64,000 nucleotides of DNA from contig CAWDZK010000006.1 of NCBI GenBank assembly GCA_963807005.1, positions 558,875-622,874 on the forward strand, read 5' to 3'. The notes under the pieces were generated by a model, which worked only from the letters and a program-made list of their open reading frames with translations, searched no databases and was not told the DNA's origin. Positions 1,076 to 54,978 of the stretch are shown in pieces. This stretch comes from an uncultured Actinomycetota bacterium. GTDB lineage: Bacteria; Actinomycetota; Actinomycetes; JACCUZ01. The position numbers were made by a program, and so were the translations under genes. Every line of letters starts with the position of its first letter. The first letter of the stretch is position 1.

Positions 1076-1489
1076 ATGATCCCGGGTATGGAGCCGACAG
1101 TGCTGGCGGGACCGGTCGAGTTCAGCCCAGGCGAGATCATGGCGATCGTCGCGGTGCTCGCGGTCCTCTTCGTGCTCCTGACGGCGCCGGGCTGGGCGAT
1201 GGTCGGGTGGGCGTTCCGCCGCCGTCGGCTCGGCCGGGGCCCCGGGGGCACCGGCCGGACGTGGCCGGCAGTCGTCGGGGGCTGCGCCACCGGGCTGGTG
1301 CTCTGCGCCGGGGTCAGTGCCCTGGTGGCAGCGCTGGTGCCGCACACGTTCGTCTCCGTCGGGCTGGTGGCGGTCCTCGCGTCCTGGCTGGCCTGCTGGG
1401 TGCTCGCAGCAGCGCTCAACCGGAGCGCAGCGGGTGGCGAGGGGGCTGCCACGGGCACCGCCACGACGCCGGACGGCTGGGGTGGCTAG
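1076..1489 (+). CDS. Small hydrophobic membrane protein, paralog 1; true start may be ATG 1088 or 1139
   Basis: ORF with about 3 predicted TM segments (IMAIVAVLAVLFVLLTAPGWAMVGWAFRRRRLGRGPG...). It is paralogous to the next ORF: shared LTAPGW, RRRR-x-RGPG, WPAVV and GW-x-ACW motifs. Confidence 0.5.
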   Translation: MIPGMEPTVLAGPVEFSPGEIMAIVAVLAVLFVLLTAPGWAMVGWAFRRRRLGRGPGGTGRTWPAVVGGCATGLVLCAGVSALVAALVPHTFVSVGLVAVLASWLACWVLAAALNRSAAGGEGAATGTATTPDGWGG

Positions 1490-1502
1490 GCACTTCGTCC
1501 CG

Positions 1503-1529
1503 CGATCTGAGTACCTGTACGGGTACGCC
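1503..1529 (+). promoter_or_regulatory. Conserved upstream element, copy 2 (CGATCTGAGTAC CTGTACGGGTACGCC), near-palindromic GTAC...GTAC core
   Basis: Duplicate of the element at 1031-1055. Contains the imperfect palindrome GTACCTGTACGGGTAC. Confidence 0.35.
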
Positions 1530-1558
1530 CGGCGCCTGCCCGCGCCGATGCTCAGGAC

Positions 1559-1927
1559 ATGGGACCCGAGATCTCCGGTACCGATGCCCTGGTCGTCCTC
1601 GCGCTGTGGGGCGGGGTCGTCGTCGTGCTGACCGCGCCGGGCTGGCTCGCGCTCGCGCTCGCCGCTGGCCGGCGCCGGGCGGCTCGAGGCCCGGGCAGCA
1701 GCTGGCCGGCCGCGGTGGCCGCAGCCCTGCTCGGCCTGCTGGTCTGCGCCGTGGTGGTGCCCGCCGTCGCCGACCGGGTGTCCGGTGCCGCCGGCACCGG
1801 GCTCGGACTGCTGGCCGGCTGGGGCGCCTGCTGGCTGGTGGCCCTGCTGACCCTGCGGCGCAGCCGCAGGGGCGGGCGGGTGCGTTCGGGCTACCCGTCG
1901 CCGGACGGGCGGGGGTGGGTGCGGTGA
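1559..1927 (+). CDS. Small hydrophobic membrane protein, paralog 2
   Basis: VVLALWGGVVVVLTAPGWLALALAAGRRRAARGPGSSWPAAVAAALLGLLVCAVVV...GWGACWLVALL. Its stop overlaps the start of the downstream large membrane protein (GTGA). Confidence 0.5.
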   Translation: MGPEISGTDALVVLALWGGVVVVLTAPGWLALALAAGRRRAARGPGSSWPAAVAAALLGLLVCAVVVPAVADRVSGAAGTGLGLLAGWGACWLVALLTLRRSRRGGRVRSGYPSPDGRGWVR

Positions 1928-39705: not shown

Positions 39706-40425
39706 ATGCAGTCGCGCGCACCCGAGACCCCGCTGGTCGTGACGCCGGAGAGCTCGGAGCTGCCGGCACCCCGGGCGCCGACGCGGGACGACGCCGATCT
39801 CGTGAGCCGGCTGCGTGGGGGCGACGAGCGCGCTTTCGCCGACGTGGTCGGCTCCTGGTCCCCGATGATGCTGCGGGTGGCCCGGGGGCACCTGTCCACC
39901 GACGCCTCGTGCGAGGAGGTGGTGCAGGAGACGTGGATGGCCGTGGTCCGCGGGCTGCCGGCCTTCGAGGGCCGCTCGTCGCTGCGCACCTGGGTCTTCC
40001 GCATCCTCACGAACCTGGCGAAGACCCGTGGGGTCCGCGAGGCGCGCTCGGTGCCGATGTCATCCCTGGCGGCCGACCGCGACGACACGCCGACGGTCGA
40101 CCCGGATCGCTTCTGCGGCCCCGGCTACGACTACCCGGGGCACTGGACCCCGATCGGGAAGCCGACCCCGTGGCAGCCTGGTCCTGAGCAGGCGGTGGTC
40201 GCCGGCGAGACGCGCCAGCTGCTCTCGGCGGCGCTGACGGTGCTGCCGGACCGCCAGCGCACGGTGGTGACCCTGCGCGACGTGCACGGGCTGGACTCCG
40301 ACGAGGTCTGTCGCTTGCTCGACGTCAGCGCGGCCAACCAGAGGGTGCTGCTGCACCGCGGCCGGGCAAAGCTGCGCACGGTCCTGGAGGAGTACTACCG
40401 CTCACGCGAGGAGGCGACGTCGTGA
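39706..40425 (+). CDS. ECF-type sigma-70 factor
   Basis: ATG with GGAGGCGG RBS. ...ERAFADVVGSWSPMMLRVARGHL...VQETWMAVVRGLPAFEGRSSLRTWVFRILTNLA... region 4 LPDRQRTVVTLRDVHGLDSDEVCRLLDVSAANQRVLLHRGRAKLR. Confidence 0.85.
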   Translation: MQSRAPETPLVVTPESSELPAPRAPTRDDADLVSRLRGGDERAFADVVGSWSPMMLRVARGHLSTDASCEEVVQETWMAVVRGLPAFEGRSSLRTWVFRILTNLAKTRGVREARSVPMSSLAADRDDTPTVDPDRFCGPGYDYPGHWTPIGKPTPWQPGPEQAVVAGETRQLLSAALTVLPDRQRTVVTLRDVHGLDSDEVCRLLDVSAANQRVLLHRGRAKLRTVLEEYYRSREEATS

Positions 40426-40697
40426 CCGACGCCACGAATCCGGGTCTGGCAATCACCTGCCAGCAGCTGGTGGAGCTCATCACCGCCTATCTCGAGGACG
40501 ATCTGGACGAGGCCACCCGCACCGAGCTCGAGGCGCACCTCAGCCTGTGCCCGGGCTGCGAGACCTACCTCGACCAGATGAGGACCACCATCAGCGAGCT
40601 GGGCCATGTCCCGGTCGAGTCGCTCAGCGAGCAGGCCCAGTCGGATCTGCTGTCCGCCTTCCGCACGTTCACTGCGGGCACACCCGGCGCCGGTTGA
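40422..40697 (+). CDS. Zinc-binding anti-sigma factor (zf-HC2/RsrA-like, soluble)
   Basis: GTG overlapping the sigma stop. ITCQQLVELITAYLEDDLDEATRTELEAHLSLCPGCETYL, a C-x(25)-H-x3-C-x2-C ZAS motif. Confidence 0.75.
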   Translation: MTDATNPGLAITCQQLVELITAYLEDDLDEATRTELEAHLSLCPGCETYLDQMRTTISELGHVPVESLSEQAQSDLLSAFRTFTAGTPGAG

Positions 40698-40714
40698 GGC
40701 CGGGAGGAGACCCG

Positions 40715-41050
40715 GTGCTGGGCTGCCCGGAGCTCGTGGAGCTCGTCACCGAGTACGTCGAGGGGGCGCTGACGCCCGAACGGCACCATGAGGTGCACGA
40801 GCACCTGCTCGAGTGCGCGGACTGCCTGCGCTACCTCGGCCAGGTGGCGTTGACCTCGCAGCTCCTAGCGACGCTGCCGGCGCCGGAGCTGACGAGCGAG
40901 CTCGAGGCGCAGCTGGCCCGGGACTTCCGCACCGCGTCCGAGCGGCCCGGGCCGCCGAGGGTCTCGGCTCAGTTCTCCCGCAGGGACCGGAACAGGGCCA
41001 GCGCCTTCTGCCGGTCCCACTTGACGGATGACCCGGCCGGCGTCTGGTAG
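40715..41050 (+). CDS. Second zf-HC2 anti-sigma-like protein (tandem paralog); C-terminal tail overlaps convergent LCP gene
   Basis: GTG with GGGAGGAGA RBS. LGCPELVELVTEYVEGALTPERHHEVHEHLLECADCLRYL aligns position-by-position with the upstream anti-sigma. Confidence 0.55.
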   Translation: MLGCPELVELVTEYVEGALTPERHHEVHEHLLECADCLRYLGQVALTSQLLATLPAPELTSELEAQLARDFRTASERPGPPRVSAQFSRRDRNRASAFCRSHLTDDPAGVW

Positions 41051-42260: not shown

Positions 42261-42806
42261 GTGACCGACCCTTCGTCCGACCGCCCCCCGGGTGACGCAC
42301 CTCACGCCGGGAAGCCCACCAGCGCCGCTCGCAGCACCCTCAGCCGGATCATGACGGTGCTGGACACCAACCTGCTCGGCTCGGTCCATGGCGGCGTGGT
42401 GATGAAGCTCGTGGACGACGTCGCCGGCGTGGTGGCACAGCGGCACTCCGGCGGCCCGGCGGTCACCGCGTCGATGGACGAGATGGCGTTCCTCTCGCCG
42501 GTCCGGGTGGGGGACCTGGTGCACGCCGCGGCGCAGGTCAACTGGGCCGGTCGGACGTCGATGGAGGTCGGCGTCCGGGTGGTCGCCGAGCCGTGGAACG
42601 AGGCCGGCGTGGAGCCGGTGCGGGTGGCCACGGCCTACCTCGTGTTCGTCGCCGTCGACGAGGCGGGCCGGCCGCGCGTGGTCCCGCCGGTGGAGCCGGA
42701 GACGACCGAGGACCGCAGGCGGTTCGCCGAGGCGGAGATCCGCCGGCAGCACCGGCTGGCCCGTCGGGAGGCCATCCTGCGCTCGCGGGAGTCCGGCGGG
42801 ACCTAG
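42261..42806 (+). CDS. Acyl-CoA thioesterase (hotdog fold, YciA-like)
   Basis: ...TLSRIMTVLDTNLLGSVHGGVVMKLVDDVAGVVAQRHSGGPAVTASMDEMAFLSPVRVGDLVHAAAQVNWAGRTSMEVGVRV. Start is GTG 42261 or ATG 42351. The stop shares a CTAG with the convergent gene. Confidence 0.75.
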   Translation: MTDPSSDRPPGDAPHAGKPTSAARSTLSRIMTVLDTNLLGSVHGGVVMKLVDDVAGVVAQRHSGGPAVTASMDEMAFLSPVRVGDLVHAAAQVNWAGRTSMEVGVRVVAEPWNEAGVEPVRVATAYLVFVAVDEAGRPRVVPPVEPETTEDRRRFAEAEIRRQHRLARREAILRSRESGGT

Positions 42807-45283
42807 GGCGACGGGGTGGCTGTGCTCCCGGACGGCGTCCCGGAGGGCGACGTGCTCGCGGACGGCGACGCGGACCCGGACGAGGTCGGTGTGCCGCCGG
42901 CCGGCGCGCCGGTGCTGCCTGCCCCCGACGTCCCGTCGGTCGCCGTGCCGGCCGGGCTCGGGGACCTGCTCGCAGCCGGCCCGGCCGGGGCCGGGCTCGA
43001 GGGTGCGGAGGACGCGGTGCCGGCCGTCGCCGACCCGCTGGGGGTCCCGGAACCCGTCGTGGTTGACGGTGAGACCGTCGCTGTCGGGGCGGGTGCCGGT
43101 GCCGCGTCGCCGTTCTCGGCCCGGACGATGTCGATGATCTGCTGCTCGTAGCCGGCGAGGGTCGACCGGATCTGGTCCAGCGGGACGTCGGTGATGGTCC
43201 GGCCGAAGGCCAGCACCTGCTGCCAGACGGCGGTGAGCGCAGCGGTGCCGGCCTCGCTGAGCGGGCCGTCCAGGGTGAGGACCAGCTGCTGGGCCAGCGA
43301 GTAGGCGACACACTGCACGCAGTTGTAGTTGACGGCGGCCGAGAGGTTCTGTGGCACGACCACATCGGCCTGGCCAAGGACCAGCACGACCTGGAAGCCG
43401 ACGGCGACCGCGGCGCAGCCGGTGCAGCTGGCGAACGCGTAGGCCTCGTTGGTGTTCAGGACGGTGCCGTCGTCGGCCCACACCAGGGCGAACGCGACGT
43501 CGTAGCGGGTGGTGCCGTCGGTGGTGTTGACGGCCAGCGCCTGGGTGTCGCCCGCCCCCGGAGCCTCCGGCCGGTCGAACGGGAACACCCAGGTGGGAGC
43601 GTCGGCCGGCGCGGCGGGAGCGCCGGGAGCCGCAGCCGGGGCGTCAGCCGCGCCCTGGGCAGCCGGCGGTGCCGACCCGGCCGGCACCAGGACCAGGGCC
43701 AGCTCCGGCTGGTCCGGTGGTGGCGGCTGCTCGTCGCTGGCCCACAGGGTCTGCGCCAACCCGCGCTGACCTTCGCGCAGCGACGGTGCGGCCGGACGCG
43801 GAGGTGCCAGGCGGTCTAGGACGGGGATCCGCTGGTACGCCGCCGCCGGCACGGCGTCGAACACGGTGCCGCGCTCGGTCGGCCGGATCGGCCGGTACTT
43901 CTGCTCACCCGGCCACCAGGCGTAGGCCAGACCGCCGAGCAGCGCGAGGGCAGCGACGACCGCGACCGCACGGCGACCGGGGCGTCCCGCGGTGCTCCGG
44001 CGTACCGAGCGGACGCTGCGACGGACCAGCCGCCCGAGCAGGTAGAGCATCGCCAGGACCGGCAGCGCGATCGCCAGGATCGAGACCAGTCGGACGCCGA
44101 CCGTGGTCCACGCGTGCGACGCCCACGCGACCGACAGCGCGTGCGACTGCGCACCCAGGCTCTCCCACGCGGTGCCGATCGCGCGGGGGAGGGCGACGAC
44201 CATCATCACCAACGAGAGGAGCAGCACGGGCACGACGACGAGCACCCAGACGGTGACGACGGCCCGGGCCCACCAGGTCAGTGGCGACGGTCGTCGCCAG
44301 TTCTGCGGGAGCAGACCGAGCAACGTCGGCTTGATGTGCGAGTAGAGGTCCGGTACGCCGGTCACGTCGGCGAGGATGTGGTAGCCGTCGAAGCGTACGA
44401 ACGGCGCCAGCTGCCGCAGCATCTGCAGCACCTGTGCGCCGATGACCAGCAGCAGCGCCTGCCAGTGCACGACCGCCCACACGCCGAACATCGCGAGGGC
44501 GAATACCGCGTTGAAGTACAGCCCACCCAGGTCGACCCGGACCCGGCCGCCTCGGCCGAGCCGGTAGCTGTCACTCACCTCGGTGTAGAACGCCGGCCAG
44601 ACCAGGTAGAGGCCGGCCCCCATCGCGCCGGGGGTCGCGCCGCCGTAGCGGCAGGCCGCCGCGTGACCGAACTCGTGGAAGCCCGCCGAGACCGCCGTGA
44701 TCGCGAAGACGAGCAGGAACAGGCCGGGCTGGGTGAACGCGTCCCTGGTGGCGGCCGCGAGGCCCTCCCGGAACAGCACCCAGCCCGCGACGGCCACGAA
44801 CGCGAGGGTGAACGGCACGACGACGGCCGGGTGGAAGAAGACGGCGAACGGTGCCGTGACCCGCCGGGTCACGGCCGGGTCGGACACGACGTACTTGAAC
44901 CTGACCGCGAGCAGCGGGTTGGCCTTGCGCACCTCGGGATCGCTGCCGTCGGGCCGCCGCAGGACGCCGAGCGGCCGGAGCCGGTCGTCCACGAGGGACC
45001 GCACCTGCTCGGCGGTGACCCCGCGGCCGAAGGACTCGCTCACGGCATCGGCGAGCTCGTCGTACGTGCGGTGGCCGTCGATCTCCTCGAGAACGACGTA
45101 GAGCAGCCGGGTGAGCTGGACGGTCTGGCCGTCCGAGCGCCGGACCAGTGCCGGCGGCTCCTTGTAGCCGGAGCCCGCGAGGCTGCCGATCAGCTCGACA
45201 CCGGCCGCCCGAGCGGGCACCTCCGGGCTGGAGGTGCCCGCTCGGGTCGCGGACTGGGCCGGGGCGTCCGGCGTCGCGGTCAC
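42803..45283 (-). CDS. Multi-domain membrane protein: N-terminal PqqD-like (RiPP-recognition-element-like) domain + M50/site-2-protease-type intramembrane zinc metalloprotease + extracytoplasmic Cys-containing domain + Ser/Thr/Pro/Gly-rich tail
   Basis: PqqD-like region: PALVRRSDGQTVQLTRLLYVVLEEIDGHRTYDELADAVSESFGRGVTAEQVRSLVDDRLRPLGVL. M50 region: HExxH in a TM helix (AGFHEFGHAAACRYGG) and a later FDGYHILADV Asp ligand. Extracytoplasmic part: CTGC / NYNCVQC. Tail of about 110 aa of S/T/P/G/A. Start GTG 45283 (alternative GTG about 75 nt downstream). Confidence 0.6.
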   Translation of the reverse strand: MTATPDAPAQSATRAGTSSPEVPARAAGVELIGSLAGSGYKEPPALVRRSDGQTVQLTRLLYVVLEEIDGHRTYDELADAVSESFGRGVTAEQVRSLVDDRLRPLGVLRRPDGSDPEVRKANPLLAVRFKYVVSDPAVTRRVTAPFAVFFHPAVVVPFTLAFVAVAGWVLFREGLAAATRDAFTQPGLFLLVFAITAVSAGFHEFGHAAACRYGGATPGAMGAGLYLVWPAFYTEVSDSYRLGRGGRVRVDLGGLYFNAVFALAMFGVWAVVHWQALLLVIGAQVLQMLRQLAPFVRFDGYHILADVTGVPDLYSHIKPTLLGLLPQNWRRPSPLTWWARAVVTVWVLVVVPVLLLSLVMMVVALPRAIGTAWESLGAQSHALSVAWASHAWTTVGVRLVSILAIALPVLAMLYLLGRLVRRSVRSVRRSTAGRPGRRAVAVVAALALLGGLAYAWWPGEQKYRPIRPTERGTVFDAVPAAAYQRIPVLDRLAPPRPAAPSLREGQRGLAQTLWASDEQPPPPDQPELALVLVPAGSAPPAAQGAADAPAAAPGAPAAPADAPTWVFPFDRPEAPGAGDTQALAVNTTDGTTRYDVAFALVWADDGTVLNTNEAYAFASCTGCAAVAVGFQVVLVLGQADVVVPQNLSAAVNYNCVQCVAYSLAQQLVLTLDGPLSEAGTAALTAVWQQVLAFGRTITDVPLDQIRSTLAGYEQQIIDIVRAENGDAAPAPAPTATVSPSTTTGSGTPSGSATAGTASSAPSSPAPAGPAASRSPSPAGTATDGTSGAGSTGAPAGGTPTSSGSASPSASTSPSGTPSGSTATPSP

Positions 45284-45297
45284 GTCGGGTAGGGGTG

Positions 45298-46059
45298 CTA
45301 CTGGCCGGCGGTGGCGGTCGATCCGCTGCCGGAGTCGGCCGGTACCTCGTCGCCCTGGCTGATGTCGGACGTCTGGTCCGCGGTGGCGTCCGCCGACACG
45401 TCGTCGAGGTGCTGGTTGATGATCGCGTCCTGCTGGGCGACCGCTGTGGCGGCCGAGCCGATCGAGCCGACGTTCGCCGATGCGGCCGCATCGATCGGTG
45501 CCGCCACGTTGGCGTTCGCGGCCACCGCACCGGCGATCGGGGCAGCCACGTCGGCGTCCAGGTTGAGGTCGACGTTCACGTCGAGCAGGTTGCCGTCCAG
45601 CATCGAGGCCGGGTCGGCGGTGACGGCCGCCGGGTCGGCGGGTGCCGTGCCGTCGGTCGGCGTGCTGCCGTCGGTCGGCGTGCTGCCGTCGGCCGGGGCG
45701 CTGCCGGTCCCGTCCGTCGGGGTGTCGACGACGCTGTCGCCCTGTCCGATGGTGCTGTCCTGCGGGGCGTTGGCGGTGGCCTCGCCGGAGATCCCCTGGT
45801 CGATCTGCACGCCCTGGTCGGCCAGCGCCTGGGCGGTCGAGCCGGCGGACAGCACGTTGGCGCCCACAGCGGCGTTGATCGGCGCAGCGATGTTGGCGTT
45901 CGCCGCGACCGCGAGGTCGATCGGCGCGGCCACGTCCAGCCCGAGGTCCAGGTCCGCGTTGAGGTCGAGCAGCGAGATCACCTCCTTGGGAGGCAGCGCG
46001 GTGCCGGCCTCGGCGGCCAGCTCGGCGTCCGACATCGGGGTGGGGTCGTTCTCGGTCAT
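45298..46059 (-). CDS. Acidic (Asp/Ala/Asn-rich) protein composed of two ~80-aa tandem repeats; no signal peptide; unknown family
   Basis: ATG 46059 with GGGAGGA RBS. Repeat 1: LLDLNADLDLGLDVAAPIDLAVAANANIAAPINAAVGANVLSAGSTAQALADQG... Repeat 2: LLDVNVDLNLDADVAAPIAGAVAANANVAAPIDAAASANVGSIGSAATAVAQQD... Stop lies 14 nt from the next gene. Confidence 0.6.
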   Translation of the reverse strand: MTENDPTPMSDAELAAEAGTALPPKEVISLLDLNADLDLGLDVAAPIDLAVAANANIAAPINAAVGANVLSAGSTAQALADQGVQIDQGISGEATANAPQDSTIGQGDSVVDTPTDGTGSAPADGSTPTDGSTPTDGTAPADPAAVTADPASMLDGNLLDVNVDLNLDADVAAPIAGAVAANANVAAPIDAAASANVGSIGSAATAVAQQDAIINQHLDDVSADATADQTSDISQGDEVPADSGSGSTATAGQ

Positions 46060-47877: not shown

Positions 47878-48915
47878 ATGGCCGACCTCGACCACGTCCC
47901 CGAACCCGGCCCCGCGGGCGGGACCGCCGGGTCCGCGCGCGGCGCCTGGCCGGGCGTCTCGGTCGTCATGCCGGTGCTGGACGAGGAGCGCCACCTGCGA
48001 GCGGCGGTCGCCACGGTGCTCGGCCAGGACTACCCCGGCCCGCTCGAGCTGGTGCTGGCGCTCGGCCCCTCGCGGGACCGCACCGACGAGATCGCTGCCG
48101 CCCTGGCGTCGGCCGACGGGCGGGTGCAGACGGTGCGCAACCCGACCGGGGCCACCGGCGCCGGGCTCAACCTCGCGATCGCCGCCGCCCGGCACGACGT
48201 GGTGGTGCGGCTCGACGGGCACGCACTGGTGCCGGCCGACTACGTGCGGGTAGCGGTCGAGACGCTCGGTCGGACGGGTGCCGACAACGTGGGCGGGTTG
48301 ATGGCCGCCGAGGGGGTCACCGACTTCGAGTGCGCGGTCGCGGCCGCGATGACGAGCCCGATCGGTGTCGGGCAGGCGAGCTTCCACACCGGCGGCCAGG
48401 AAGGCCCGGCGCCCACCGTGTACCTCGGGGCGTTCCGGCGGGAGGTCCTCGACCGGCTCGGCGGCTACGACGAGACCTTCCTGCGGGCCCAGGACTGGGA
48501 GCTGAACCACCGCATCCGCGAGAGTGGCGGCCTGGTCTGGTTCACGCCGGCCATGCGGGTGTCCTACCGGCCCCGGTCGACCCTGCGGGCCCTGGCGAAG
48601 CAGTACCGCGACTACGGCCGTTGGCGCCGGGTCGTCATGCGCCAGCACGAGGGCACCGTCAACGTGCGCTACCTCGCGCCCCCGGCGGCGGTGCTCGGCG
48701 TCGCCGCCGGCACGGTGGCCGGCGCGATCGGGTGGCGACCGGCTTTCGTGGCACCCCTGGGGTATGCCGCCGCTGTGCTCGTCGGGTCCGCCGTGGTGGG
48801 CCGAGGGCTGCCACCCCGCTCGCGCGCCTGGCTTCCCGTGGTGCTGGCGACGATGCACGGTGCGTGGGGGATCGGCTTCCTCACCTCCCCACGGTCCCTC
48901 CGCACCGGCGGCTGA
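47878..48915 (+). CDS. Family 2 glycosyltransferase with C-terminal membrane segments
   Basis: VSVVMPVLDEERHLRAAVATVLGQDYPGPLELVLALGPSRDRTDEI...RLDGHALVPADY... Confidence 0.8.
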   Translation: MADLDHVPEPGPAGGTAGSARGAWPGVSVVMPVLDEERHLRAAVATVLGQDYPGPLELVLALGPSRDRTDEIAAALASADGRVQTVRNPTGATGAGLNLAIAAARHDVVVRLDGHALVPADYVRVAVETLGRTGADNVGGLMAAEGVTDFECAVAAAMTSPIGVGQASFHTGGQEGPAPTVYLGAFRREVLDRLGGYDETFLRAQDWELNHRIRESGGLVWFTPAMRVSYRPRSTLRALAKQYRDYGRWRRVVMRQHEGTVNVRYLAPPAAVLGVAAGTVAGAIGWRPAFVAPLGYAAAVLVGSAVVGRGLPPRSRAWLPVVLATMHGAWGIGFLTSPRSLRTGG

Positions 48916-49152
48916 CCCGCCCCCTCGCCCCACTCACCGCCGCGGGTGGGTGGCTGCGGTCACCCGGCTGCCCCGAGCACCAACGACGGCGCAAGGGCGG
49001 CGTCGGTCCCGACATCGGTCCCCGGAGGTCGTTGCGCCGTCGTTGGTGTTCAGCCGGCCGTGGGCGTGGTCGGCCCCCGCGGGGCCCTGGACCGCGAGCG
49101 CTCCTGCGTCGCCGCCGGCTGTCGCGGGTGCGCCACGCCCCGGTGACCCGGC

Positions 49153-50109
49153 ATGATCGGCCGGGTGTCGAGGCCCTTCACGTTTCTCGCCGACGCGTTC
49201 GACGTGTCCAGCGCACGCGAGCTCGGTGAGCGGGCCCGCGCCGCCGAGGACCTCGGCGTCACCACGTTCGTGCTGCCGGACCACCTGGTCGACCAGCCGG
49301 CACCGGTGCCGTACCTGGCCGCTGTGGCCGCGCTCACCGAGCGCATCCGGATCAGCGCCTTCGTGCACAACAACGACCTCCGCCATCCCGCCGTGCTCGC
49401 CCAGGAGCTGGCCACCCTCGACGTCCTGTCCGAGGGCCGGCTCGACGTGGCCGTCGGGGCCGGCTGGAACGAGGCTGAGTACACCGCGATCGGCCTGCCC
49501 TTCGACCCGATCCGGGTCCGGCAGGCGCGGCTGGCCGAGTCGGTGCGGGTCATCAAGGGATGCTTCGGCGCCGGCCCGTTCTCGTTCGCCGGTGAGCACT
49601 ACCGGATCACCGACTACGACGCGCAGCCGAAACCGGTGCAGCAGCCGCACCCGCCGTTCTTCATCGGCGGTGGCGGCCGGCCGACGCTGGAGCTGGCCGC
49701 GCGCGAGGCGCAGACCGTGGGCCTGGCGCCGCGGATCATGCCCGGCGGCCGGCCGGACCCGCGCTCGCTCACCTGGGCGGCGACCGCGGAGAAGATCCGC
49801 TGGGTCCGGGAGGCGGCCGGCGAGCGGTTCGACGAGCTGACGCTCAACGTCTACCCGTCGTTCTGGCCCGTCACGGTCACCGACGACCTGGAGGGCGAGG
49901 CGGCGAAGGTGATCGCCGCGCTGGAGGAACGCAGCGGGATCGAGCTCACCGTCCAGGAGGTCGTCGACTCGCCGCACGTCTTCATCGGGTCGCACGACCG
50001 TTTCGTCGAGAAGTTCACCGGGCTGCGTGACGGCCTCGGGATCTCGTCGTTCCTCATCGGGGACCTCGACCAGCTCGGCCCGGTGGTCGCGCGGCTCGCG
50101 GGAACCTGA
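49153..50109 (+). CDS. LLM-class (luciferase-like) F420-dependent oxidoreductase
   Basis: FTFLADAFDVSSARELGERARAAEDLGVTTFVLPDHL...LSEGRLDVAVGAGWNEAEY..., the TIGR03621-like LLM pattern. Confidence 0.8.
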   Translation: MIGRVSRPFTFLADAFDVSSARELGERARAAEDLGVTTFVLPDHLVDQPAPVPYLAAVAALTERIRISAFVHNNDLRHPAVLAQELATLDVLSEGRLDVAVGAGWNEAEYTAIGLPFDPIRVRQARLAESVRVIKGCFGAGPFSFAGEHYRITDYDAQPKPVQQPHPPFFIGGGGRPTLELAAREAQTVGLAPRIMPGGRPDPRSLTWAATAEKIRWVREAAGERFDELTLNVYPSFWPVTVTDDLEGEAAKVIAALEERSGIELTVQEVVDSPHVFIGSHDRFVEKFTGLRDGLGISSFLIGDLDQLGPVVARLAGT

Positions 50110-50111
50110 GG

Positions 50112-50900
50112 TCAACCGGCTTCCGGCTCCCGGCGGAGCGCAGCGACCGCGTCCGGGACGTCGTTGAGCACCAGCACGTCCACGCCGGCGGCCACGAGGT
50201 CCCGCGCCCGCGCGGGCTCCGGGCACCAGGCCAGCACCCGCAGCCCGGCCCGGTGCGCGACCTCGACGCTCTCGCCGGCCGGCCGGTGCACCGGACCGGC
50301 CTCCACCCGGTTGGGTCCGAACGAGCCGTGATGCAGGCCCACGAGGTCGAGGCCGAACCCGGCGGCCGCGGCGACCAGGTGCCGCAGCGGGAAGTCGATC
50401 CAGCCGAGCAGGCCGTACGCCGCGCCGGGCACGGCGTGCCGGAGCCGGAGCAGAGCGGCGGGGTCGAACGACGTGACCAGCACCGGGCGGCGACCGGACT
50501 CCTCAGCCAGCAGCGGGGCGAGCAGTACGTCGGTACGGCGGGCGACCGGGTCGGTCGCATCCTCCAGCACCGTCTTGACGTCGAGGTCGACGGGCACTCC
50601 GGGCGGCAGTGCGTCGAGCAGATCTGCCACCGTGGCGAGACCGGCCGCGACGGCGTCCGCCTGCGAGACGTTCACGAGGAAGCGGCCGTCGGGAAGGGCC
50701 GGGTCGTGGCTCACCACGAGCGCGTCGTCGCGAGTGCGGGCGACGTCCACCTCCACGCCGTCGGCGCCCGCTGACAGCGCGGCCAGCATCGAGGCGACGG
50801 TGTTCTCCGGGTGGCCGGTCACGGCGCCCTTGCCGAGCCCGCGGTGACCGATCAGGGTAGGTCGGCCGACGAGGAAGCGATCGACCTCAGTCGTGCTCAT
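50112..50900 (-). CDS. Glycerophosphodiester phosphodiesterase (GDPD family)
   Basis: TLIGHRGLGKGAVTGHPENTVASMLAALSAGADGVEVDVARTRDDALVVSHD... Confidence 0.85.
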   Translation of the reverse strand: MSTTEVDRFLVGRPTLIGHRGLGKGAVTGHPENTVASMLAALSAGADGVEVDVARTRDDALVVSHDPALPDGRFLVNVSQADAVAAGLATVADLLDALPPGVPVDLDVKTVLEDATDPVARRTDVLLAPLLAEESGRRPVLVTSFDPAALLRLRHAVPGAAYGLLGWIDFPLRHLVAAAAGFGLDLVGLHHGSFGPNRVEAGPVHRPAGESVEVAHRAGLRVLAWCPEPARARDLVAAGVDVLVLNDVPDAVAALRREPEAG

Positions 50901-52284
50901 CGACGTCGCCGGTGGTCACCCGGCGGTGTCCTGCGAGCAGTCGGTCGCGCTCCGCGACCACGTCCGACACGGCCTGCTCGAACTTCCGCGAGCTGTCGCC
51001 GGGGCCGAGGTCGCCGAAGTAGTGCGTCCGGGTCCGGGCCCGGTCCTCGCGGCGCTTGTCGCTCTCCAGCGCGTCGGTCATCGCCTCGGCGAAACCGTCG
51101 ATGGTGGACGAGTCGATGATGTCGGCACCCTCGGTGAGCGGGCTGTCGCTGGCGAGGAGCTCGCGGTCGTCCCGCCGGTCGGTCAGGAAGATCGGCGCCT
51201 CGGCCCGGAGGTACAGGAAGTCGAGCGTGACGCTGGAGATGTCACCGACCAACGCGTCGCAGCCGCCGAACATCGCCAGGATGTTGCCGTCCGTGCGGGC
51301 GACGTGGCCGGCCTGCGGGTCACGCTGGTTGGCCTTCTCGACCATCGACATGATCTTGCGGTGCGCGGACCGGACGCCGGGGTTAGCCGAGCCTGCCACC
51401 CGGGGGTGCGGCTTGTAGACCACCCGCAGGTCGGGGAGCGCGAGCAGAGACTGCACGATCCGGATGCCGTACCGGTCCAGCGACGTCCAGTTGTTCGACT
51501 CGCTCTCGCCCTCCCACGTCGGTGCGTACATGACGGTGCGACGGGTCGACTCCGGCAGCTCGGCCGTGAAGTCGAGATCGAGCTGCGGCCGGCCGACCGG
51601 CACGACCTTGCTGTCGTCGAACCCGATGAGCGCCTCGCGGTACCTCTCGACGGCGACCGGTCCGGCCACGAACACCCGGTCATAGGCCTTGACCTGGTTG
51701 GAGAAGCTGGACAGCTTGTCGCTCTCGCCGTGGTTGACGTGCACGTGCAGCATCCGCGGGTTGTTCATCGACTGGAAGTTGCGCTGGCTGTTGTTGACGT
51801 AGATCCCGACCTTGAACTCGCAGGCGTCGTAGAGGTTCATCAGGTCGAGGAACGTCGTGAGGCAGACGGCCGGCAGCGTGGTGCGGTCCTGGAGGTCGCG
51901 CATGGCCCGGAGGTCCCGCAGGACCAGCACCACCTTGTGCTTGGAGGAGAGCCGCTCCAGCACCGGCAGCCACTGGTCGAGCTGGTAGATCCGGTCCGGG
52001 CCGTCGCCGTAGTAGACGACCACCTCGGCGTCGACCGGGATGCGGGCGGCGGCCATCTGCGGCACGAACGAGTCCGGGGCCAGCCGCAGCGCCAGCTCTG
52101 CCTGCGCCCGCCGGGCCCGCCAGCGCACCGCGCGCACGGTCCGCCGCGCCGCGGCTCGGGTGACGCTGGCCTCGGGCCTGTGGGGCACGTCGGGTCCTCC
52201 TGGGGCTGGCTGCGATGGGGGGTCTGCGGGGCGGACGCCGTACGCCCACCGCCTTCGGGGACGATACCGTCCGGGGGATCGCAC
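50887..52284 (-). CDS. CDP-glycerol glycerophosphotransferase (TagB/TagF family)
   Basis: ...HVHVNHGESDKLSSFSNQVKAYDRVFVAGPVAVERY...VMYAPTWEG...VVYKPHPR..., the TagF-like catalytic core. N-terminal start uncertain. Confidence 0.8.
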   Translation of the reverse strand: MRSPGRYRPRRRWAYGVRPADPPSQPAPGGPDVPHRPEASVTRAAARRTVRAVRWRARRAQAELALRLAPDSFVPQMAAARIPVDAEVVVYYGDGPDRIYQLDQWLPVLERLSSKHKVVLVLRDLRAMRDLQDRTTLPAVCLTTFLDLMNLYDACEFKVGIYVNNSQRNFQSMNNPRMLHVHVNHGESDKLSSFSNQVKAYDRVFVAGPVAVERYREALIGFDDSKVVPVGRPQLDLDFTAELPESTRRTVMYAPTWEGESESNNWTSLDRYGIRIVQSLLALPDLRVVYKPHPRVAGSANPGVRSAHRKIMSMVEKANQRDPQAGHVARTDGNILAMFGGCDALVGDISSVTLDFLYLRAEAPIFLTDRRDDRELLASDSPLTEGADIIDSSTIDGFAEAMTDALESDKRREDRARTRTHYFGDLGPGDSSRKFEQAVSDVVAERDRLLAGHRRVTTGDVDEHD

Positions 52285-52308
52285 TGCCCCACGGAGAGGT
52301 ACGACCTG

Positions 52309-53052
52309 ATGATCGGCATGGTGCTGGCGGCGGGTGCCGGCCGACGGCTACGCCCGTACACCGACACGCTGCCCAAGGCGCTCGTCCCGGTCGACGGCGA
52401 GACCACCATTCTCGACATCGCCCTGGGCAACCTGGCGACCGTCGGGCTCACCGACGTCACCGTGGTGGTGGGCTACCGGGCCGAGGCGGTCGAGGCCCGG
52501 CAGGCGGTCCTGGAGGAGCGGCACGGGGTCCACCTCACCCTCGTGCACAACGACAAGGCCGAGGAGTGGAACAACTGCTACTCCCTGTGGCTGGCCCGTG
52601 ACCAGTTCGCCCAGGGCGCCCTGCTGGTGAACGGCGACACCGTGCACCCGGTGAGCGTCGAGCGCACGCTGCTCGCGGCCCGGGAGAACGAGGGCGCCCC
52701 GGGCATCCTGCTCGCGCTCGACGACCAGAAGCGGCTGGCCGACGAGGAGATGAAGGTCGTCGTCGACGAGTCCCGTCGGATGCGCCGGATCACCAAGCTG
52801 ATGGACCCGGTCGAGGCGACCGGTGAGTACATCGGGGCCACCCTGATCGAGGCGCATGCCGCCGAGGCGCTGGCGACCGCCCTGGAGGCGACCTGGCAGC
52901 GCGACCCGGACCTCTACTACGAGGACGGCTACCAGCACCTGGTCGACACCGGCGGGGAGGTCGGGGTCGCTCCGATCGGTTCGGTCCGCTGGGTCGAGGT
53001 CGACAACCACGACGACCTCGCCAAGGCGCGGGAGATCGCGTGCCACTACTAG
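52309..53052 (+). CDS. Sugar/polyol-phosphate nucleotidyltransferase (MobA-like NTP_transf_3 family)
   Basis: RBS GGAGAGG. MIGMVLAAGAGRRLRPYTDTLPKALVPVDGETTILDIALGNL... Confidence 0.75.
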   Translation: MIGMVLAAGAGRRLRPYTDTLPKALVPVDGETTILDIALGNLATVGLTDVTVVVGYRAEAVEARQAVLEERHGVHLTLVHNDKAEEWNNCYSLWLARDQFAQGALLVNGDTVHPVSVERTLLAARENEGAPGILLALDDQKRLADEEMKVVVDESRRMRRITKLMDPVEATGEYIGATLIEAHAAEALATALEATWQRDPDLYYEDGYQHLVDTGGEVGVAPIGSVRWVEVDNHDDLAKAREIACHY

Positions 53053-54098
53053 CCCGGATGCTGCTCAGCCCGCTGTTCATCGACATCCGCGCGGGCGCGG
53101 TCTCCGGGCTCGGAGACCTGCTCGCCGACCGCCGGATCTCCGGCGACGGGCACGTCGCCGTGGCGGTGGGGCCGGGACAGGGCGAGGCCGTGGTGGCTGC
53201 GCTGCAGCCGGCGCTGTCCAACGCGGACGTCTTCACGGTCCGCGGGGGCAGCCTCGAGGCGGCCGGCGAGCTCCAGGCCGAGCTGCGGGGCAGGCACTAC
53301 GACGCCCTCGTCGGCATCGGCGGCGGCCGCACCCTCGACGTCGCGAAGTACGCGGCCACCAGGCTGGCGCTGCCCATGGTCGCCGTCGCGACCAACCTGG
53401 CGCACGACGGCATCGCCTCACCGGTGAGCTCACTGCTGCACGAGGGCGGCAAGGGCTCGTTCGGCGTGGTGCTGCCCATGGCAGTGGTCGTCGACCTGGA
53501 CTACGTGCGATCGTCCCCGCCCCGGATGGTGCGGTCCGGCGTCGGTGACGCCGTCTCGAACCTCTCGGCGATCGCGGACTGGCGGCTGGCGGCGGACGAG
53601 CGGGGGGAGCCGGTCGACGGGCTGGCGGTCACCTTCGCCCGGACCGCAGCCGAGTCCGTGCTGCACCGCACCGACAGCATCGAGTCGGACAGCTTCCTCA
53701 CCGCGCTCGCCGAGGCCCTCGTGCTCTCCGGCATGGCGATGGCGGCCGCGGGCTCCAGCCGGCCGTGCAGCGGCGGCGACCACGAGTTCCTGCACGCGGT
53801 GGACGTGCTCTTCCCCGGTGCCGGCAACCACGGGGAGCTGGCCGGCGTCGGCGCCCTCTACTCCTTCTTCCTGCGCGGCGACGAGGAGTCGGCGGCACTG
53901 GTCGATGCCTGCCTTCGGCGGCACGGACTTCCGCGGCTGCCGGCCGACCTGGGGCTGACCGCGGAGCAGATGACCGACGCGGTGCTGCTCGCGCCGTCCA
54001 CCAGGCCGGACCGGTACACGATCCTCGAGCACCTCGCCCTCGACGCGGCGGCGGTGCGGGCCTCGGTGGACGCCTACGTCGAGCGTTTCGGCGGCTGA
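53040..54098 (+). CDS. Iron-containing alcohol dehydrogenase-family enzyme, sn-glycerol-1-phosphate dehydrogenase (EgsA/AraM)-like
   Basis: GTG with GGGAGA RBS. ...LVGIGGGRTLDVAKYAATRLALPMVAVATNLAHDGIASPVSSL...GDAVSNLSAIADW...GDHEFLHAV..., matching the G1PDH / glycerol dehydrogenase-like pattern. Confidence 0.7.
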   Translation: MPLLARMLLSPLFIDIRAGAVSGLGDLLADRRISGDGHVAVAVGPGQGEAVVAALQPALSNADVFTVRGGSLEAAGELQAELRGRHYDALVGIGGGRTLDVAKYAATRLALPMVAVATNLAHDGIASPVSSLLHEGGKGSFGVVLPMAVVVDLDYVRSSPPRMVRSGVGDAVSNLSAIADWRLAADERGEPVDGLAVTFARTAAESVLHRTDSIESDSFLTALAEALVLSGMAMAAAGSSRPCSGGDHEFLHAVDVLFPGAGNHGELAGVGALYSFFLRGDEESAALVDACLRRHGLPRLPADLGLTAEQMTDAVLLAPSTRPDRYTILEHLALDAAAVRASVDAYVERFGG

Positions 54099-54171
54099 CC
54101 AGCCACCGAGCCCCCGGAGCCCCCGGTGGTAGCGTTCCTCGTCCGTCAGGTGAGAGACCGGTAGGAGCGTC

Positions 54172-54978
54172 GTGGCTGGACAGGTAGTGCCGGCGCGGCT
54201 GGGCACCCTGTGGGACAACCGGCGGGTCCTGTCCCTGCTCGTCACCCGTGACCTCAAGGTCAAGTACGCCGACTCGGTGCTGGGCTACGTCTGGTCCATC
54301 CTCGAGCCGCTGGCCATGGCCGGCGTCTACTGGTTCGTCTTCACCAAGCTGATGGACCGCCAGCTCGGGGAGGCGCCGTACATCGTCTTCCTGCTCTGCG
54401 GGATGCTCCCCTGGCAGTGGACCAACGCCGTGCTGCGCTCCTCGATGAAGTCGCTCACCAAGGACTCCAAGCTGGTCCGCTCGACCAACCTGCCCCGCGA
54501 GATCTGGGTGCTGCGCACGGTCGCCTCGAAGTTCGCCGAGTTCATGTATGCCATCCCGGTGCTCGTCGGCTTCGCGATCTTCTCCGACGCCCGGCTGTCC
54601 TGGTGGGTGGTGTTCGTCCCGCTCGCGATCCTCATGCAGGCGATGCTGCTCACGGGCGCGGGCCTCCTGCTGGCGTCGCTCTCGGTGCTGTACGGCGACG
54701 TCGAACGGCTGATGCGGATCGTCATGCGGCTGCTGTTCTACTTCTCCCCGGTCATCTACGGCGTCAACGACGTCACCAGCCGGCTCGGTGCGGTCGGCGA
54801 CCTCTTCCTGCTCAACCCCCTCGCGGGCATCTTCGACCTCTACCGCACCGCCTTCTTCCCCGACCAGTGGGCGGGCTGGACCGCGGTCATCCTGGCGGCG
54901 GTCGTGTCGCTGCTCTTCTTCGTCGTCGGAGCCCTGGTGTTCCGGCGGCTCGAGGGCACTGTCCTCAAGGAGATCTGA
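54172..54978 (+). CDS. ABC-2 type polysaccharide/teichoic-acid export permease (TagG/Wzm-like)
   Basis: LLVTRDLKVKYADSVLGYVWSILEPLAMAGVYWFVFTKLM..., six TM segments. Confidence 0.85.
   Translation: MAGQVVPARLGTLWDNRRVLSLLVTRDLKVKYADSVLGYVWSILEPLAMAGVYWFVFTKLMDRQLGEAPYIVFLLCGMLPWQWTNAVLRSSMKSLTKDSKLVRSTNLPREIWVLRTVASKFAEFMYAIPVLVGFAIFSDARLSWWVVFVPLAILMQAMLLTGAGLLLASLSVLYGDVERLMRIVMRLLFYFSPVIYGVNDVTSRLGAVGDLFLLNPLAGIFDLYRTAFFPDQWAGWTAVILAAVVSLLFFVVGALVFRRLEGTVLKEI

What the first reader, a model, noticed from the sequence alone, without database searches (positions are those of the whole stretch)
42803..46059. Gene pair between two LCP ligase genes: PqqD-like/M50 intramembrane protease fusion plus an acidic tandem-repeat protein
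The 826-aa ORF combines three parts. First, an N-terminal domain matches the PqqD / RiPP-recognition-element pattern (QLTRLLYVVLEEIDGHRTYDELADAVSESFGRGVTAEQVRSLVDDRLRPLGVL). Second, a polytopic core carries the site-2-protease zinc site (HEFGH in a TM helix plus a downstream FDGYH Asp ligand). Third, an extracytoplasmic Cys-containing domain ends in a long Ser/Thr/Pro tail. PqqD-like domains normally present peptide substrates to RiPP-modifying enzymes, and M50 proteases normally cleave TM substrates such as anti-sigma factors. A covalent fusion of the two, sitting 14 nt downstream of a repeat-built acidic protein inside a wall-glycopolymer locus, is not a named system I recognise. It could be a peptide or protein processing-and-export module.
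Basis: partly seen in the sequence, partly recalled or inferred. Interest (0 to 1): 0.8.

Follow-up and report, generated by a model that had tools for sequence, protein, structure and literature searches.

The report
Leader-guided membrane protease with fused substrate
This gene pair is a fused version of a widespread, uncharacterised three-part actinobacterial system in which a membrane metalloprotease with a built-in peptide-recognition domain probably trims a near-invariant acidic Ala/Asn-rich protein; what the product does is unknown.

Summary
In detail: a 253-aa acidic two-module protein (46059..45298, -) lies 14 nt upstream of an 826-aa membrane protein (45283..42803, -). Pfam PqqD and M50 stay below threshold. 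NCBIfam, the AlphaFold model and fold search still support an N-terminal RRE/PqqD-like domain fused to a site-2-type HExxH/xDG intramembrane protease. That fusion is not new: daptide leader peptidases (MpaP/DapP) have it.

What appears undescribed is the system. The repeat gene sits directly upstream of the protease in 79 of 80 genomes from many actinobacterial genera. The LCP/teichoic-acid neighbours are conserved only in close relatives, and no third gene is conserved.

A "short form" explains the anatomy. It has 2-4 tandem ~68-aa genes with the same leader and core motif as one module of the repeat protein (hhalign 97.8%, E 8e-13), a ~555-aa RRE-protease, and usually a separate secreted protein homologous to the window protease's Cys-containing ectodomain. 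The window pair is therefore a doubly fused three-component system with no conserved modifying enzyme.

Most likely mechanism: the RRE binds the leader and the protease cleaves it. The product's function, and any export to the ectodomain, are inferred only. New variant of a known kind; interest moderate to high.

The parts
45298..46059 (-). Gene for the 253-aa acidic two-module precursor-like protein (the 'repeat protein')
   Evidence: ORF and translation. Family of >=3541 homologues. Directly upstream of the protease gene in 79/80 genomes.
45979..46059 (-). Leader-like N-terminus, residues 1-27 (MTENDPTPMSDAELAAEAGTALPPKEV), the putative RRE recognition sequence
   Evidence: Invariant E13, L22, P23, K25, E26, V27 in 48 homologues. 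Aligns with the leader ELDxLAGExLPER of the 68-aa short-form peptides. Resembles the daptide leader motif ELExMEAP. Binding itself is inferred.
45736..45978 (-). Core module 1, residues 28-108, with the near-invariant AAPIDLAVAANANxAAPIxAAVGANVLSxGS motif and a predicted beta-hairpin
   Evidence: Alignments A2/A4. hhalign to a short-form peptide: 97.8% probability, E 8.2e-13. Model strands 75-90 and 93-106 at low confidence.
45616..45735 (-). Variable T/D/G/P-rich linker, residues 109-148
   Evidence: Variable in length and sequence between homologues, roughly 30 to 170 aa. Contains an 18-nt tandem repeat.
45355..45615 (-). Core module 2, residues 149-235, which has no leader of its own
   Evidence: 48% identical to module 1, E 3e-27. 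Invariant AAPIxGxVAANANVAAPID.
45301..45354 (-). 18-aa C-terminal extension (GDEVPADSGSGSTATAGQ) specific to this copy
   Evidence: The other 14 aligned homologues end at ...ITQ or a close variant.
42803..45283 (-). Gene for the 826-aa RRE / site-2-type protease / Cys-ectodomain fusion protein
   Evidence: ORF. >=3976 homologues. 9198 clusters at 50% identity with E<=1e-3.
44954..45214 (-). RRE / PqqD-like winged-helix domain, residues 24-110, predicted cytoplasmic
   Evidence: Model shows beta-beta-beta-alpha-alpha-alpha order, with block-mean pLDDT mostly 80-97 (one block 71). The only high-probability Foldseek hits are TbiB1 with its leader peptide (5V1U; prob 0.96, TM 0.62) and PqqD (5SXY; prob 0.97, TM 0.67). 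Aligns to the N-terminal part of the daptide RRE-peptidase model. Pfam PqqD is sub-threshold, E 0.046.
44318..44878 (-). Intramembrane metalloprotease core, residues 136-322 (TM1-4), with HEFGH at 44663..44677 and FDGYH at 44378..44392
43913..44275 (-). Three additional TM helices, residues 337-457 (TM5-7), ending with the C-terminus outside
   Evidence: Hydropathy and positive-inside rule. Long model helices 337-388, 392-430 and 435-456. Also present in the short-form proteases.
43109..43591 (-). Extracytoplasmic Cys domain, residues 565-725: six strands plus two helices, with CxxC at 43415..43426 and 43310..43321
   Evidence: C620, C623, C655 and C658 are invariant. Model. Homologous to separate signal-peptide proteins encoded next to short-form proteases (E 2e-20, 1e-15, 4e-10). 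A Cys-domain gene was found in 28/39 metagenome loci. No Pfam or PDB relative.
42806..43108 (-). Low-complexity Ser/Thr/Pro/Ala/Gly tail, residues 726-826
   Evidence: Composition S25, T18, P18, A21, G15 of 101 residues. Variable between homologues. Modelled as disordered.

Best explanation
The two genes form a self-contained, leader-dependent proteolytic maturation system, in a doubly fused form.

Proposed steps:
1. The cytoplasmic RRE (PqqD-like) domain of the 826-aa protein binds the conserved N-terminal leader (..ELAAEAGTALPxKEV..) of the 253-aa acidic protein.
2. This presents the substrate to the adjoining site-2-type zinc intramembrane protease (HEFGH plus D299).
3. The protease removes the leader, probably close to the conserved LP-x-K/R-E junction. 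This follows the precedent of daptide MpaP, which cleaves directly after ELExMEAP.
4. The released product carries two near-invariant Ala/Asn-rich modules.
5. I infer that the product acts at or beyond the membrane together with the extracytoplasmic CxxC...CxxC domain. That domain is always linked to the system, either fused (as here) or as a separate secreted or lipoprotein-type protein.

Shown here:
- Domain identities at the level of fold and family.
- Obligate gene linkage.
- Homology of the repeat protein to short leader-plus-core peptides.
- The fusion/fission relationship of all three parts.
- Absence of any conserved modifying enzyme or transporter.

Inferred:
- RRE-leader binding.
- The cleavage event and its site.
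- Any translocation.
- The role of the product. The hyper-conserved core and the core-genome-like distribution suggest a structural or envelope role, or self-assembly, rather than an antibiotic.
For: Protease identity:
- NCBIfam daptide intramembrane metalloprotease E 3.8e-28 over residues 44-313, and YydH/LiaK protease E 5.9e-10.
- Invariant HExxH and xDG motifs.
- 7-TM, N-in/C-out topology.

RRE identity:
- beta3-alpha3 domain with block-mean pLDDT mostly 80-97.
- The only high-probability Foldseek hits are TbiB1 with its leader peptide and PqqD.

Literature precedent:
- RRE-S2P fusions remove leaders in daptide biosynthesis.
- The M50 protease EpeP is thought to both cleave and export its peptide.

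Linkage:
- The repeat gene is immediately upstream on the same strand in 79/80 genomes from Arthrobacter, Nocardioides, Kribbella, Pedococcus, Georgenia, Mycolicibacterium, Micromonosporaceae and Nitriliruptorales.
- Linkage persists at 43-44% protease identity.
- Intergenic gaps are 5-69 nt.
- Only the pair is universal among 61 full-length loci.

Substrate identity:
- The repeat-protein profile matches the 68-aa peptides encoded in 2-4 tandem copies upstream of short-form proteases: hhalign 97.8%, E 8e-13, with shared leader and core.
- A precursor gene is present in 59/60 metagenome loci with enough upstream DNA.

Third component:
- The ectodomain is homologous to separate secreted proteins in short-form loci.
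- It is found in 28/39 loci.
- An extra standalone copy sits next to the pair in Pseudarthrobacter.
Against: - There is no direct evidence of binding or cleavage. No complex model could be run.
- A 253-aa substrate with pI 4 and no signal peptide, no clear TM segment (maximum hydropathy 1.43) and no conserved transporter has no obvious route to the ectodomain.
- The repeat protein alone models poorly (pLDDT 56).
- 11 of 39 short-form loci had no detectable Cys-domain gene.
Confidence: 0.6

Rival explanations
1. Regulated intramembrane proteolysis used for signalling. The extracytoplasmic Cys domain senses an envelope cue and gates the protease. The protease then cleaves the cytoplasmic acidic protein to activate or destroy an intracellular factor, as SpoIVFB does with pro-sigma-K. 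Nothing is exported.
For: - Site-2 proteases classically act in signalling, and SpoIVFB cleaves an N-terminal prosequence from a protein that has no TM segment (established knowledge of the family).
- The substrate lacks a signal peptide, a clear TM segment and a conserved transporter.
- The ectodomain is positioned like a sensor.
- An ECF sigma factor and two anti-sigma genes lie 2-5 kb away in the window.
Against: - The sigma/anti-sigma genes are not conserved with the pair.
- The repeat protein has no recognisable regulatory or DNA-binding domain.
- Short-form systems carry 2-4 tandem paralogous 68-aa peptides, which fits a product made in quantity better than a regulator.
- In short-form systems the Cys domain is a free secreted or lipoprotein-type protein.
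Confidence: 0.17
2. A conventional RiPP (daptide-like or other) antimicrobial cluster. Its modifying enzymes and exporter are encoded elsewhere or went unrecognised, and the repeat protein is a multi-core precursor.
For: - The best family hits are RiPP leader peptidases.
- The leader motif resembles the daptide ELExMEAP.
- Some short-form loci have an adjacent MacB/FtsX ABC transporter, and several short peptides end in Thr.
- An Fe-ADH gene (PF00465, the Pfam of daptide DapC) lies 7 kb away in the window.
Against: - The score is far below the daptide equivalog cut-off (98.7 vs 300 bits).
- The C-terminal Thr is not conserved. Long forms end in Q.
- No aminotransferase, methyltransferase, DUF-RRE protein or any other gene is conserved within +-8 kb in 61 loci.
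- The Fe-ADH travels with NTP_transferase and ABC2 (usually also TagF), and only in close relatives.
- The core is more conserved than the leader and is nearly invariant across classes, which is the opposite of typical antimicrobial RiPPs.
- The pair sits in core-genome contexts such as rpsF-ssb-rplI ... dnaB.
Confidence: 0.08
3. Membrane-insertion route. The Asn/Pro-containing Ala-rich core inserts as a marginal TM segment. True intramembrane cleavage then releases the C-terminal part to the outside, where the Cys domain receives it, so no transporter is needed.
For: - Site-2 proteases need helix-destabilising residues (Asn, Pro) in their substrates (established knowledge).
- The core motif NANIAxPxNAAVAANVL is the most hydrophobic stretch, with a maximum 19-residue hydropathy of 1.54 in the short form.
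- This would explain the extracytoplasmic third component and the lack of an exporter.
Against: - Hydropathy is below the usual TM threshold, and the stretch holds several Asn residues.
- In the long form the modules are flanked by many Asp residues, and about 100 acidic residues would have to cross the membrane.
- No insertion signal is evident.
Confidence: 0.1

Closest known systems
Daptide leader peptidase MpaP/DapP (RRE fused N-terminally to an intramembrane site-2 protease; NCBIfam NF041824; Ren et al. 2023, bioRxiv 10.1101/2023.03.08.531785)
   Same: - Same N-terminal RRE plus HExxH/xDG intramembrane protease architecture, with significant homology over residues 44-313 (E 3.8e-28).
- Precursor genes lie directly upstream, often in several copies.
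- The acidic leader motif is of similar form (ELExMEAP vs ELDxLAGExLP).
- Found in Actinomycetota.
   Different: - The score is only a third of the equivalog cut-off.
- Three extra TM helices, an extracytoplasmic CxxC...CxxC domain and an S/T/P tail.
- No DapB, DapC, DapD or DapM genes.
- The precursor core is unrelated (Ala/Asn-rich, near-invariant, no obligatory C-terminal Thr).
- Here the substrate is a 253-aa two-module protein.
- No conserved ABC exporter.
EpeP/YydH (LiaK family) epipeptide maturation M50 protease of Bacillus subtilis (NF058609)
   Same: Intramembrane HExxH protease that matures a ribosomal peptide. It is reported as thought to carry out both cleavage and export (review PMC10885120). 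Homology covers residues 195-311 (E 5.9e-10).
   Different: EpeP has no RRE domain match here and no ectodomain. Its system needs a radical-SAM epimerase and has an ABC transporter, and neither is linked to this pair. The score is far below the cut-off (39 vs 225 bits).
SpoIVFB / pro-sigma-K and RseP-type site-2 proteases (Peptidase M50)
   Same: Zinc site with HExxH in a TM helix near the cytoplasmic face and Asp in an xDG motif. A short beta-hairpin follows the HExxH helix. SpoIVFB removes an N-terminal prosequence from a protein that is not an integral membrane protein.
Stand-alone RREs: PqqD (5SXY) and lasso-peptide TbiB1 (5V1U)
   Same: Same beta3-alpha3 winged-helix fold (TM 0.62-0.67, Foldseek probability 0.96-0.97). 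These domains bind precursor leaders.
   Different: Here the domain is fused to a protease rather than partnering a radical-SAM enzyme or a lasso protease/cyclase. Sequence similarity to Pfam PqqD is sub-threshold.

Membership tests
Daptide biosynthetic system (DapP/MpaP protease) | RRE domain fused N-terminally to an intramembrane site-2 protease | tested here: met
   NF041824 aligns to residues 44-313. beta3-alpha3 N-domain. Foldseek hits to TbiB1 and PqqD. Definition.
Daptide biosynthetic system (DapP/MpaP protease) | Score at or above the NF041824 equivalog cut-off (300 bits) | tested here: not met
   98.7 bits. The short-form P0331 scores 100.8 bits.
Daptide biosynthetic system (DapP/MpaP protease) | Precursor with ELExMEAP leader, aliphatic core and invariant C-terminal Thr | tested here: not met
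   The leader is similar in form only. Long forms end in ...ITQ or a variant, and short forms end in T, N, G and others.
Daptide biosynthetic system (DapP/MpaP protease) | Co-occurring DUF-RRE (DapB), Fe-ADH (DapC), PLP aminotransferase (DapD) and SAM methyltransferase (DapM) | tested here: not met
   No family other than the pair is shared by 61 loci within +-8 kb. Gene calls in Micromonospora and Georgenia show none. The window's Fe-ADH is part of an NTP_transferase/ABC2 (usually also TagF) block kept only in close relatives.
Peptidase M50 / site-2 protease | HExxH zinc motif inside a transmembrane helix | tested here: met
   HEFGH 203-207 lies within hydropathy-defined TM2 (186-206) and model helix 186-213. 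It is invariant in 73 sequences.
Peptidase M50 / site-2 protease | Third zinc ligand Asp in an xDG motif at a later TM helix | tested here: met
   FDGYH 298-302. D299, G300 and Y301 are invariant, and the motif is also present in short forms. The ligand role is inferred from the motif.
Peptidase M50 / site-2 protease | Pfam PF02163 at or above gathering score (27.2 bits) | tested here: not met
   No hit for the whole protein. 9.4 bits, E 0.83 for the isolated core. 17 bits, E 0.0039 for short-form P0331.
Peptidase M50 / site-2 protease | Fold similarity to solved S2P structures | tested here: inconclusive
RiPP recognition element (PqqD-like) | Three-stranded sheet followed by three helices (winged helix-turn-helix) | tested here: met
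   Strands 30-34, 45-48, 54-57 and helices 59-67, 74-85, 91-102, with block-mean pLDDT mostly 80-97. Foldseek probability 0.96-0.97 and TM 0.62-0.67 to 5V1U and 5SXY.
RiPP recognition element (PqqD-like) | Pfam PF05402 at or above gathering score (23.4 bits) | tested here: not met
   14.5 bits, E 0.046 on the isolated domain. NF050149 RiPP_bind_ApyI E 0.055.
RiPP recognition element (PqqD-like) | Binds the leader region of a co-encoded precursor | not testable with these tools
   No multimer prediction or binding assay was available. A conserved leader exists.
YydH/EpeP (LiaK) epipeptide protease system | NF058609 cut-off (225 bits) and a linked radical-SAM epimerase and ABC transporter | tested here: not met
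   39.2 bits. No such genes are conserved near the pair.
Peptidoglycan-binding protein (name some sources give the repeat protein) | A recognisable peptidoglycan-binding domain (LysM, PG_binding, SPOR) and a secretion signal | tested here: not met
   No Pfam or NCBIfam hit at E<=1. The N-terminus is acidic with no hydrophobic signal sequence. The name is seen.
Chaplin-type functional amyloid (considered because of the V/I-x-P-V-N style motif) | Chaplin domain (Pfam) and a Sec signal peptide | tested here: not met
   No Pfam family at E<=10 for the short peptides or at E<=1 for the repeat protein. No signal peptide. The resemblance is recalled from memory only.
Known anti-phage defence systems (PADLOC) | Match to any PADLOC model | tested here: not met
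   No hit at E<=0.1 for either protein.

The most novel reading that the evidence does not exclude
This is a previously unrecognised, phylum-wide class of enzyme-free ribosomal products. An Ala/Asn-rich polypeptide with a near-invariant motif has its leader read by an RRE, is cut by the fused intramembrane protease, and is passed across the membrane by that same protein without an ATPase. It is handed to a dedicated CxxC...CxxC ectodomain that templates or anchors its assembly into a cell-envelope structure. The two conserved paralog types (or the two fused modules) would act as a hetero-pair.
Probability: 0.25. Interest if true: 0.85.

Novelty: new variant of a known kind. Interest (0 to 1): 0.66.

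Why it matters
RRE domains are used as beacons for finding new ribosomal natural products. This case shows an RRE-protease family that:
- is far larger than the daptide subfamily (thousands of proteins; at least 582 sequenced species carry a protease relative);
- has no conserved modifying enzymes;
- acts on a core that is nearly invariant across actinobacterial classes;
- always travels with an unknown extracytoplasmic Cys domain.

That pattern points to a conserved physiological role, possibly in the cell envelope, rather than a variable antibiotic. None of the three parts reaches threshold in any Pfam family.

The fusion and fission events give a ready-made, testable wiring diagram in culturable genera such as Arthrobacter, Micromonospora, Kribbella and Mycolicibacterium. 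If the protease also moves its product across the membrane, it would be a new export route.

Tried and rejected
- **Pfam on whole proteins and isolated domains:** only sub-threshold PqqD and M50 hints, and nothing for the repeat protein or the Cys domain.
- **PADLOC defence models:** none.
- **PDB sequence-profile searches** for the protease, the Cys domain and the repeat protein: nothing meaningful.
- **Foldseek of the low-confidence repeat-protein model:** no matches.
- **LCP/teichoic-acid context as part of the system:** rejected, because it is kept only in L002-L009.
- **Search for a third conserved gene:** unbiased ORF clustering found none. The first attempt timed out.
- **Daptide membership:** rejected on precursor features and missing enzymes.
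- **Source names for divergent cluster representatives:** uninformative. One contig look-up failed.
- **Promoter, terminator and Rfam scans** of the locus: empty.
- **Literature searches** for the core motif, RRE-Finder with M50, and RRE with site-2 protease: only the daptide paper and one review.
- **Precursor core as a TM segment:** hydropathy 1.43-1.54, below the usual threshold, so kept only as a minor rival.

Full report
**1. The observation**

On the minus strand a 253-aa ORF runs from ATG 46059 to TAG 45298, with GGGAGG 8 nt upstream of the start. After a 14-nt spacer, an 826-aa ORF runs from GTG 45283 to the stop at 42803. The window is about 73% G+C. It matches an ENA metagenome-assembled contig whose independent gene calls give the same two products. 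They are flanked by LytR_cpsA_psr (LCP) genes on both sides, with a convergent 4HBT thioesterase gene between the protease gene and the downstream LCP gene.

The small protein has pI 4.05. It has 38 Asp+Glu and a single basic residue (K25), and no aromatic or Cys residues. It consists of two modules that are 48% identical (E 3e-27), joined by a T/D/G/P linker.

The large protein has HEFGH at 203-207 and FDGYH at 298-302. Hydropathy indicates seven TM segments. The loop 418-438 has 9 K/R and no acidic residue, so the N-terminal domain is predicted cytoplasmic and the C-terminal Cys domain and Ser/Thr/Pro tail are predicted outside. The description is therefore accurate.

**2. Domain identities**

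The whole proteins give no hit at E<=1. The excised domains give PqqD E 0.046 (14.5 bits, cut-off 23.4) and Peptidase_M50 E 0.83.

NCBIfam gives significant though sub-cut-off matches to two RiPP leader proteases:
- the daptide intramembrane metalloprotease NF041824 (E 3.8e-28, residues 44-313 on profile positions 18-289 of 379);
- the YydH/LiaK protease NF058609 (E 5.9e-10).

An AlphaFold2 model built on 73 homologues has mean pLDDT 74.7. Its N-domain has three strands followed by three helices (30-102), with block-mean pLDDT mostly 80-97. HEFGH lies in helix 186-213 and is followed by a short beta-hairpin. The model also shows four core helices, three extra long helices, and a six-stranded sheet with two helices at 580-723.

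In Foldseek against the PDB, the only high-probability matches are the lasso-peptide RRE TbiB1 bound to its leader (5V1U; prob 0.96, TM 0.62) and PqqD (5SXY; prob 0.97, TM 0.67). The E-values are about 0.3, as expected for a 90-residue match inside a 745-residue query.

I conclude that the RRE assignment is well supported. The site-2-type protease assignment is supported by motifs and family homology, and only weakly by fold search.

**3. The fusion itself is known**

Ren et al. 2023 found the daptides by following 'RRE domains ... [quoted passage not shown] They assign leader removal to this 'RRE-dependent intramembrane peptidase (MpaP)'. [quoted passage not shown] Their clusters carry an ADH, an aminotransferase, a methyltransferase, a DUF-RRE protein and ABC transporters.

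**4. What is conserved**

Both proteins belong to large families, with at least 3976 and 3541 hits at 55-75% identity across orders. The exhaustive search found 9198 clusters at 50% identity with E<=1e-3.

They include Arthrobacter, Pseudarthrobacter, Nocardioides, Kribbella, Pedococcus, Georgenia, Mycolicibacterium, Planosporangium, Plantactinospora, Naasia and Nitriliruptorales.

In 79 of the 80 loci kept, the repeat-protein gene is immediately upstream on the same strand. The exception has no upstream DNA. Linkage persists at 43-44% protease identity, with the same leader, two modules and a linker of very variable length.

The LCP, 4HBT, GT2 and NTP_transferase neighbours recur only in the closest relatives, L002-L009. 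In Micromonospora and Georgenia the pair sits among unrelated genes, in Georgenia between rpsF-ssb-rpsR-rplI and dnaB. Unbiased clustering of ORFs from 61 full-length loci found no other universally linked family.

The wall-glycopolymer setting is therefore incidental.

**5. The short form explains the anatomy**

Shorter relatives of about 555 aa keep the RRE, the seven TM helices and an S/T/P tail, but lack the Cys domain. In loci L086-L089 they are preceded by 2-4 tandem genes of 58-69 aa. One example is MSDNEFRKVSRDELDQLAGEPLPERAALSLINANIAIPVNAAVAANVLSDGSTAYANAIQQGDITQST.

The repeat-protein profile matches this peptide at 97.8% probability and E 8.2e-13, with 54% identity over 61 columns. 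The match covers both the leader (ELAAEAGTALPxKEV vs ELDxLAGEPLPER) and the core (alignment). These peptides form their own unnamed family of at least 4038 members, many from Acidimicrobiaceae.

In the same loci a separate protein with a signal or lipoprotein-type N-terminus is homologous to residues ~576-736 of the window protease. It includes both CxxC motifs and an S/T-rich tail (E 2e-20, 1e-15, 4e-10).

In 80 metagenome loci found with short-form proteases:
- Precursor-like genes lie upstream in 59 of 60 loci with at least 700 nt of upstream DNA, usually in 2-4 copies.
- A Cys-domain gene is present in 28 of 39 loci with enough downstream DNA. Of these, 21 are immediately downstream as a separate gene, 6 are nearby, and 1 is fused.
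- Four of the 11 negatives are a different ~1370-aa architecture.
- Two Pseudarthrobacter genomes also carry an extra standalone copy of the ectodomain next to the pair.

The window pair is therefore a three-component system in which two precursors have fused into one protein and the ectodomain has fused to the protease.

**6. Mechanism**

- **Shown:** fold- and family-level domain identities, obligate linkage, precursor homology, the fusion/fission relationships, and the absence of conserved modifying enzymes or transporters.
- **Inferred from the daptide and RRE precedents:** the cytoplasmic RRE binds the conserved leader, and the adjoining zinc site removes it near the conserved LP-x-K/R-E junction.
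- **Inferred from the always-linked ectodomain:** the mature Ala/Asn-rich modules end up at or outside the membrane. No route is evident. The substrate has no signal peptide, its most hydrophobic 19-residue window scores only 1.43-1.54, and no exporter is conserved. EpeP provides a suggested precedent for cleavage coupled to export.
- **On function:** the core is more conserved than the leader and is nearly invariant between classes. The pair also lies in core-genome contexts. This argues for a structural or self-assembling role rather than an antibiotic.

Rivals are regulated proteolysis for signalling, a hidden RiPP pathway, and membrane insertion followed by true intramembrane cleavage. They are weighed in the rival section.

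**7. Comparison and novelty**

The system works like a daptide or epipeptide leader-peptidase system, but it is not a member of either. The equivalog cut-offs, the precursor features and the co-occurring enzymes are all not met (see the membership table). The name 'peptidoglycan-binding protein' that some sources give the repeat protein has no domain support.

I found no paper that describes this family, its core motif or the Cys domain. The searchable library is limited, so prior description elsewhere cannot be excluded.

I rate it a new variant of a known kind, with moderately high interest. It is widespread, strongly conserved, lacks any above-threshold Pfam family for all three parts, and is directly testable.

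**8. Limits**

- No multimer model could be run.
- The repeat protein models poorly alone (pLDDT 56).
- The ectodomain has no detectable structural relative.
- The species counts are lower bounds, and their search patterns also match short-form proteases.
- Presence or absence in model organisms such as Streptomyces coelicolor or M. tuberculosis was not determined.

Noticed in passing
window 1051..4653 (+): A 1200-aa ORF with an N-terminal CPDC...CPGC zinc-ribbon-like motif, followed by a very long Ala/Leu/Val/Gly-rich polytopic membrane region. It accounts for the unusual composition at 2-4 kb (GC 0.79, AT skew -0.40).
   Followed up: no
window 39706..41050 (+): An ECF sigma factor gene is followed by two consecutive zf-HC2 anti-sigma-like genes (40422..40697 and about 40733..41050). 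The second overlaps the 3' end of the convergent LCP gene.
   Followed up: no
window 47878..54978: A wall-teichoic-acid-like block: GT2, LLM-class oxidoreductase, GDPD, TagF-like glycerophosphotransferase, NTP_transferase, Fe-ADH and an ABC-2 transporter. The Fe-ADH shares its Pfam family (PF00465) with daptide DapC, but it travels with NTP_transferase and ABC2 (usually also TagF), and only in close relatives.
   Followed up: partly
L160, L161, L165, L167 (for example L160:3-4484): A ~1370-aa variant fuses the RRE-protease core to an additional soluble segment (not identified here), more TM helices and a large repeat-rich ectodomain. No precursor genes lie upstream.
   Followed up: partly
L031:6353-7093 and L043:6212-6985: Pseudarthrobacter genomes carry an extra standalone copy of the ectodomain linker plus Cys domain (46-48% identical to protease residues 483-747) just upstream of the repeat-protein gene, in addition to the fused copy.
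   Followed up: partly
L086:5418-5877, L088:7778-8207, L089:8001-8655: Short-form precursors come in two conserved paralog types (...NAAVAANVLSDGS... and ...NLAAALNVLSDNS...) that co-occur in each locus. This suggests a hetero-pair and may correspond to the two fused modules of the window protein.
   Followed up: no
L089:7809-7985: A 58-aa ORF carries the same leader (EELDEQDADVLPERAAMS) but an unrelated Pro-rich core. The RRE-protease may process more than one kind of core.
   Followed up: no
L086:7744-11532: In one short-form locus the protease gene is followed by a secreted protein with an LPxTG-like C-terminal motif and by a MacB/FtsX-type ABC transporter pair. These are not seen in the other short-form loci examined.
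   Followed up: no
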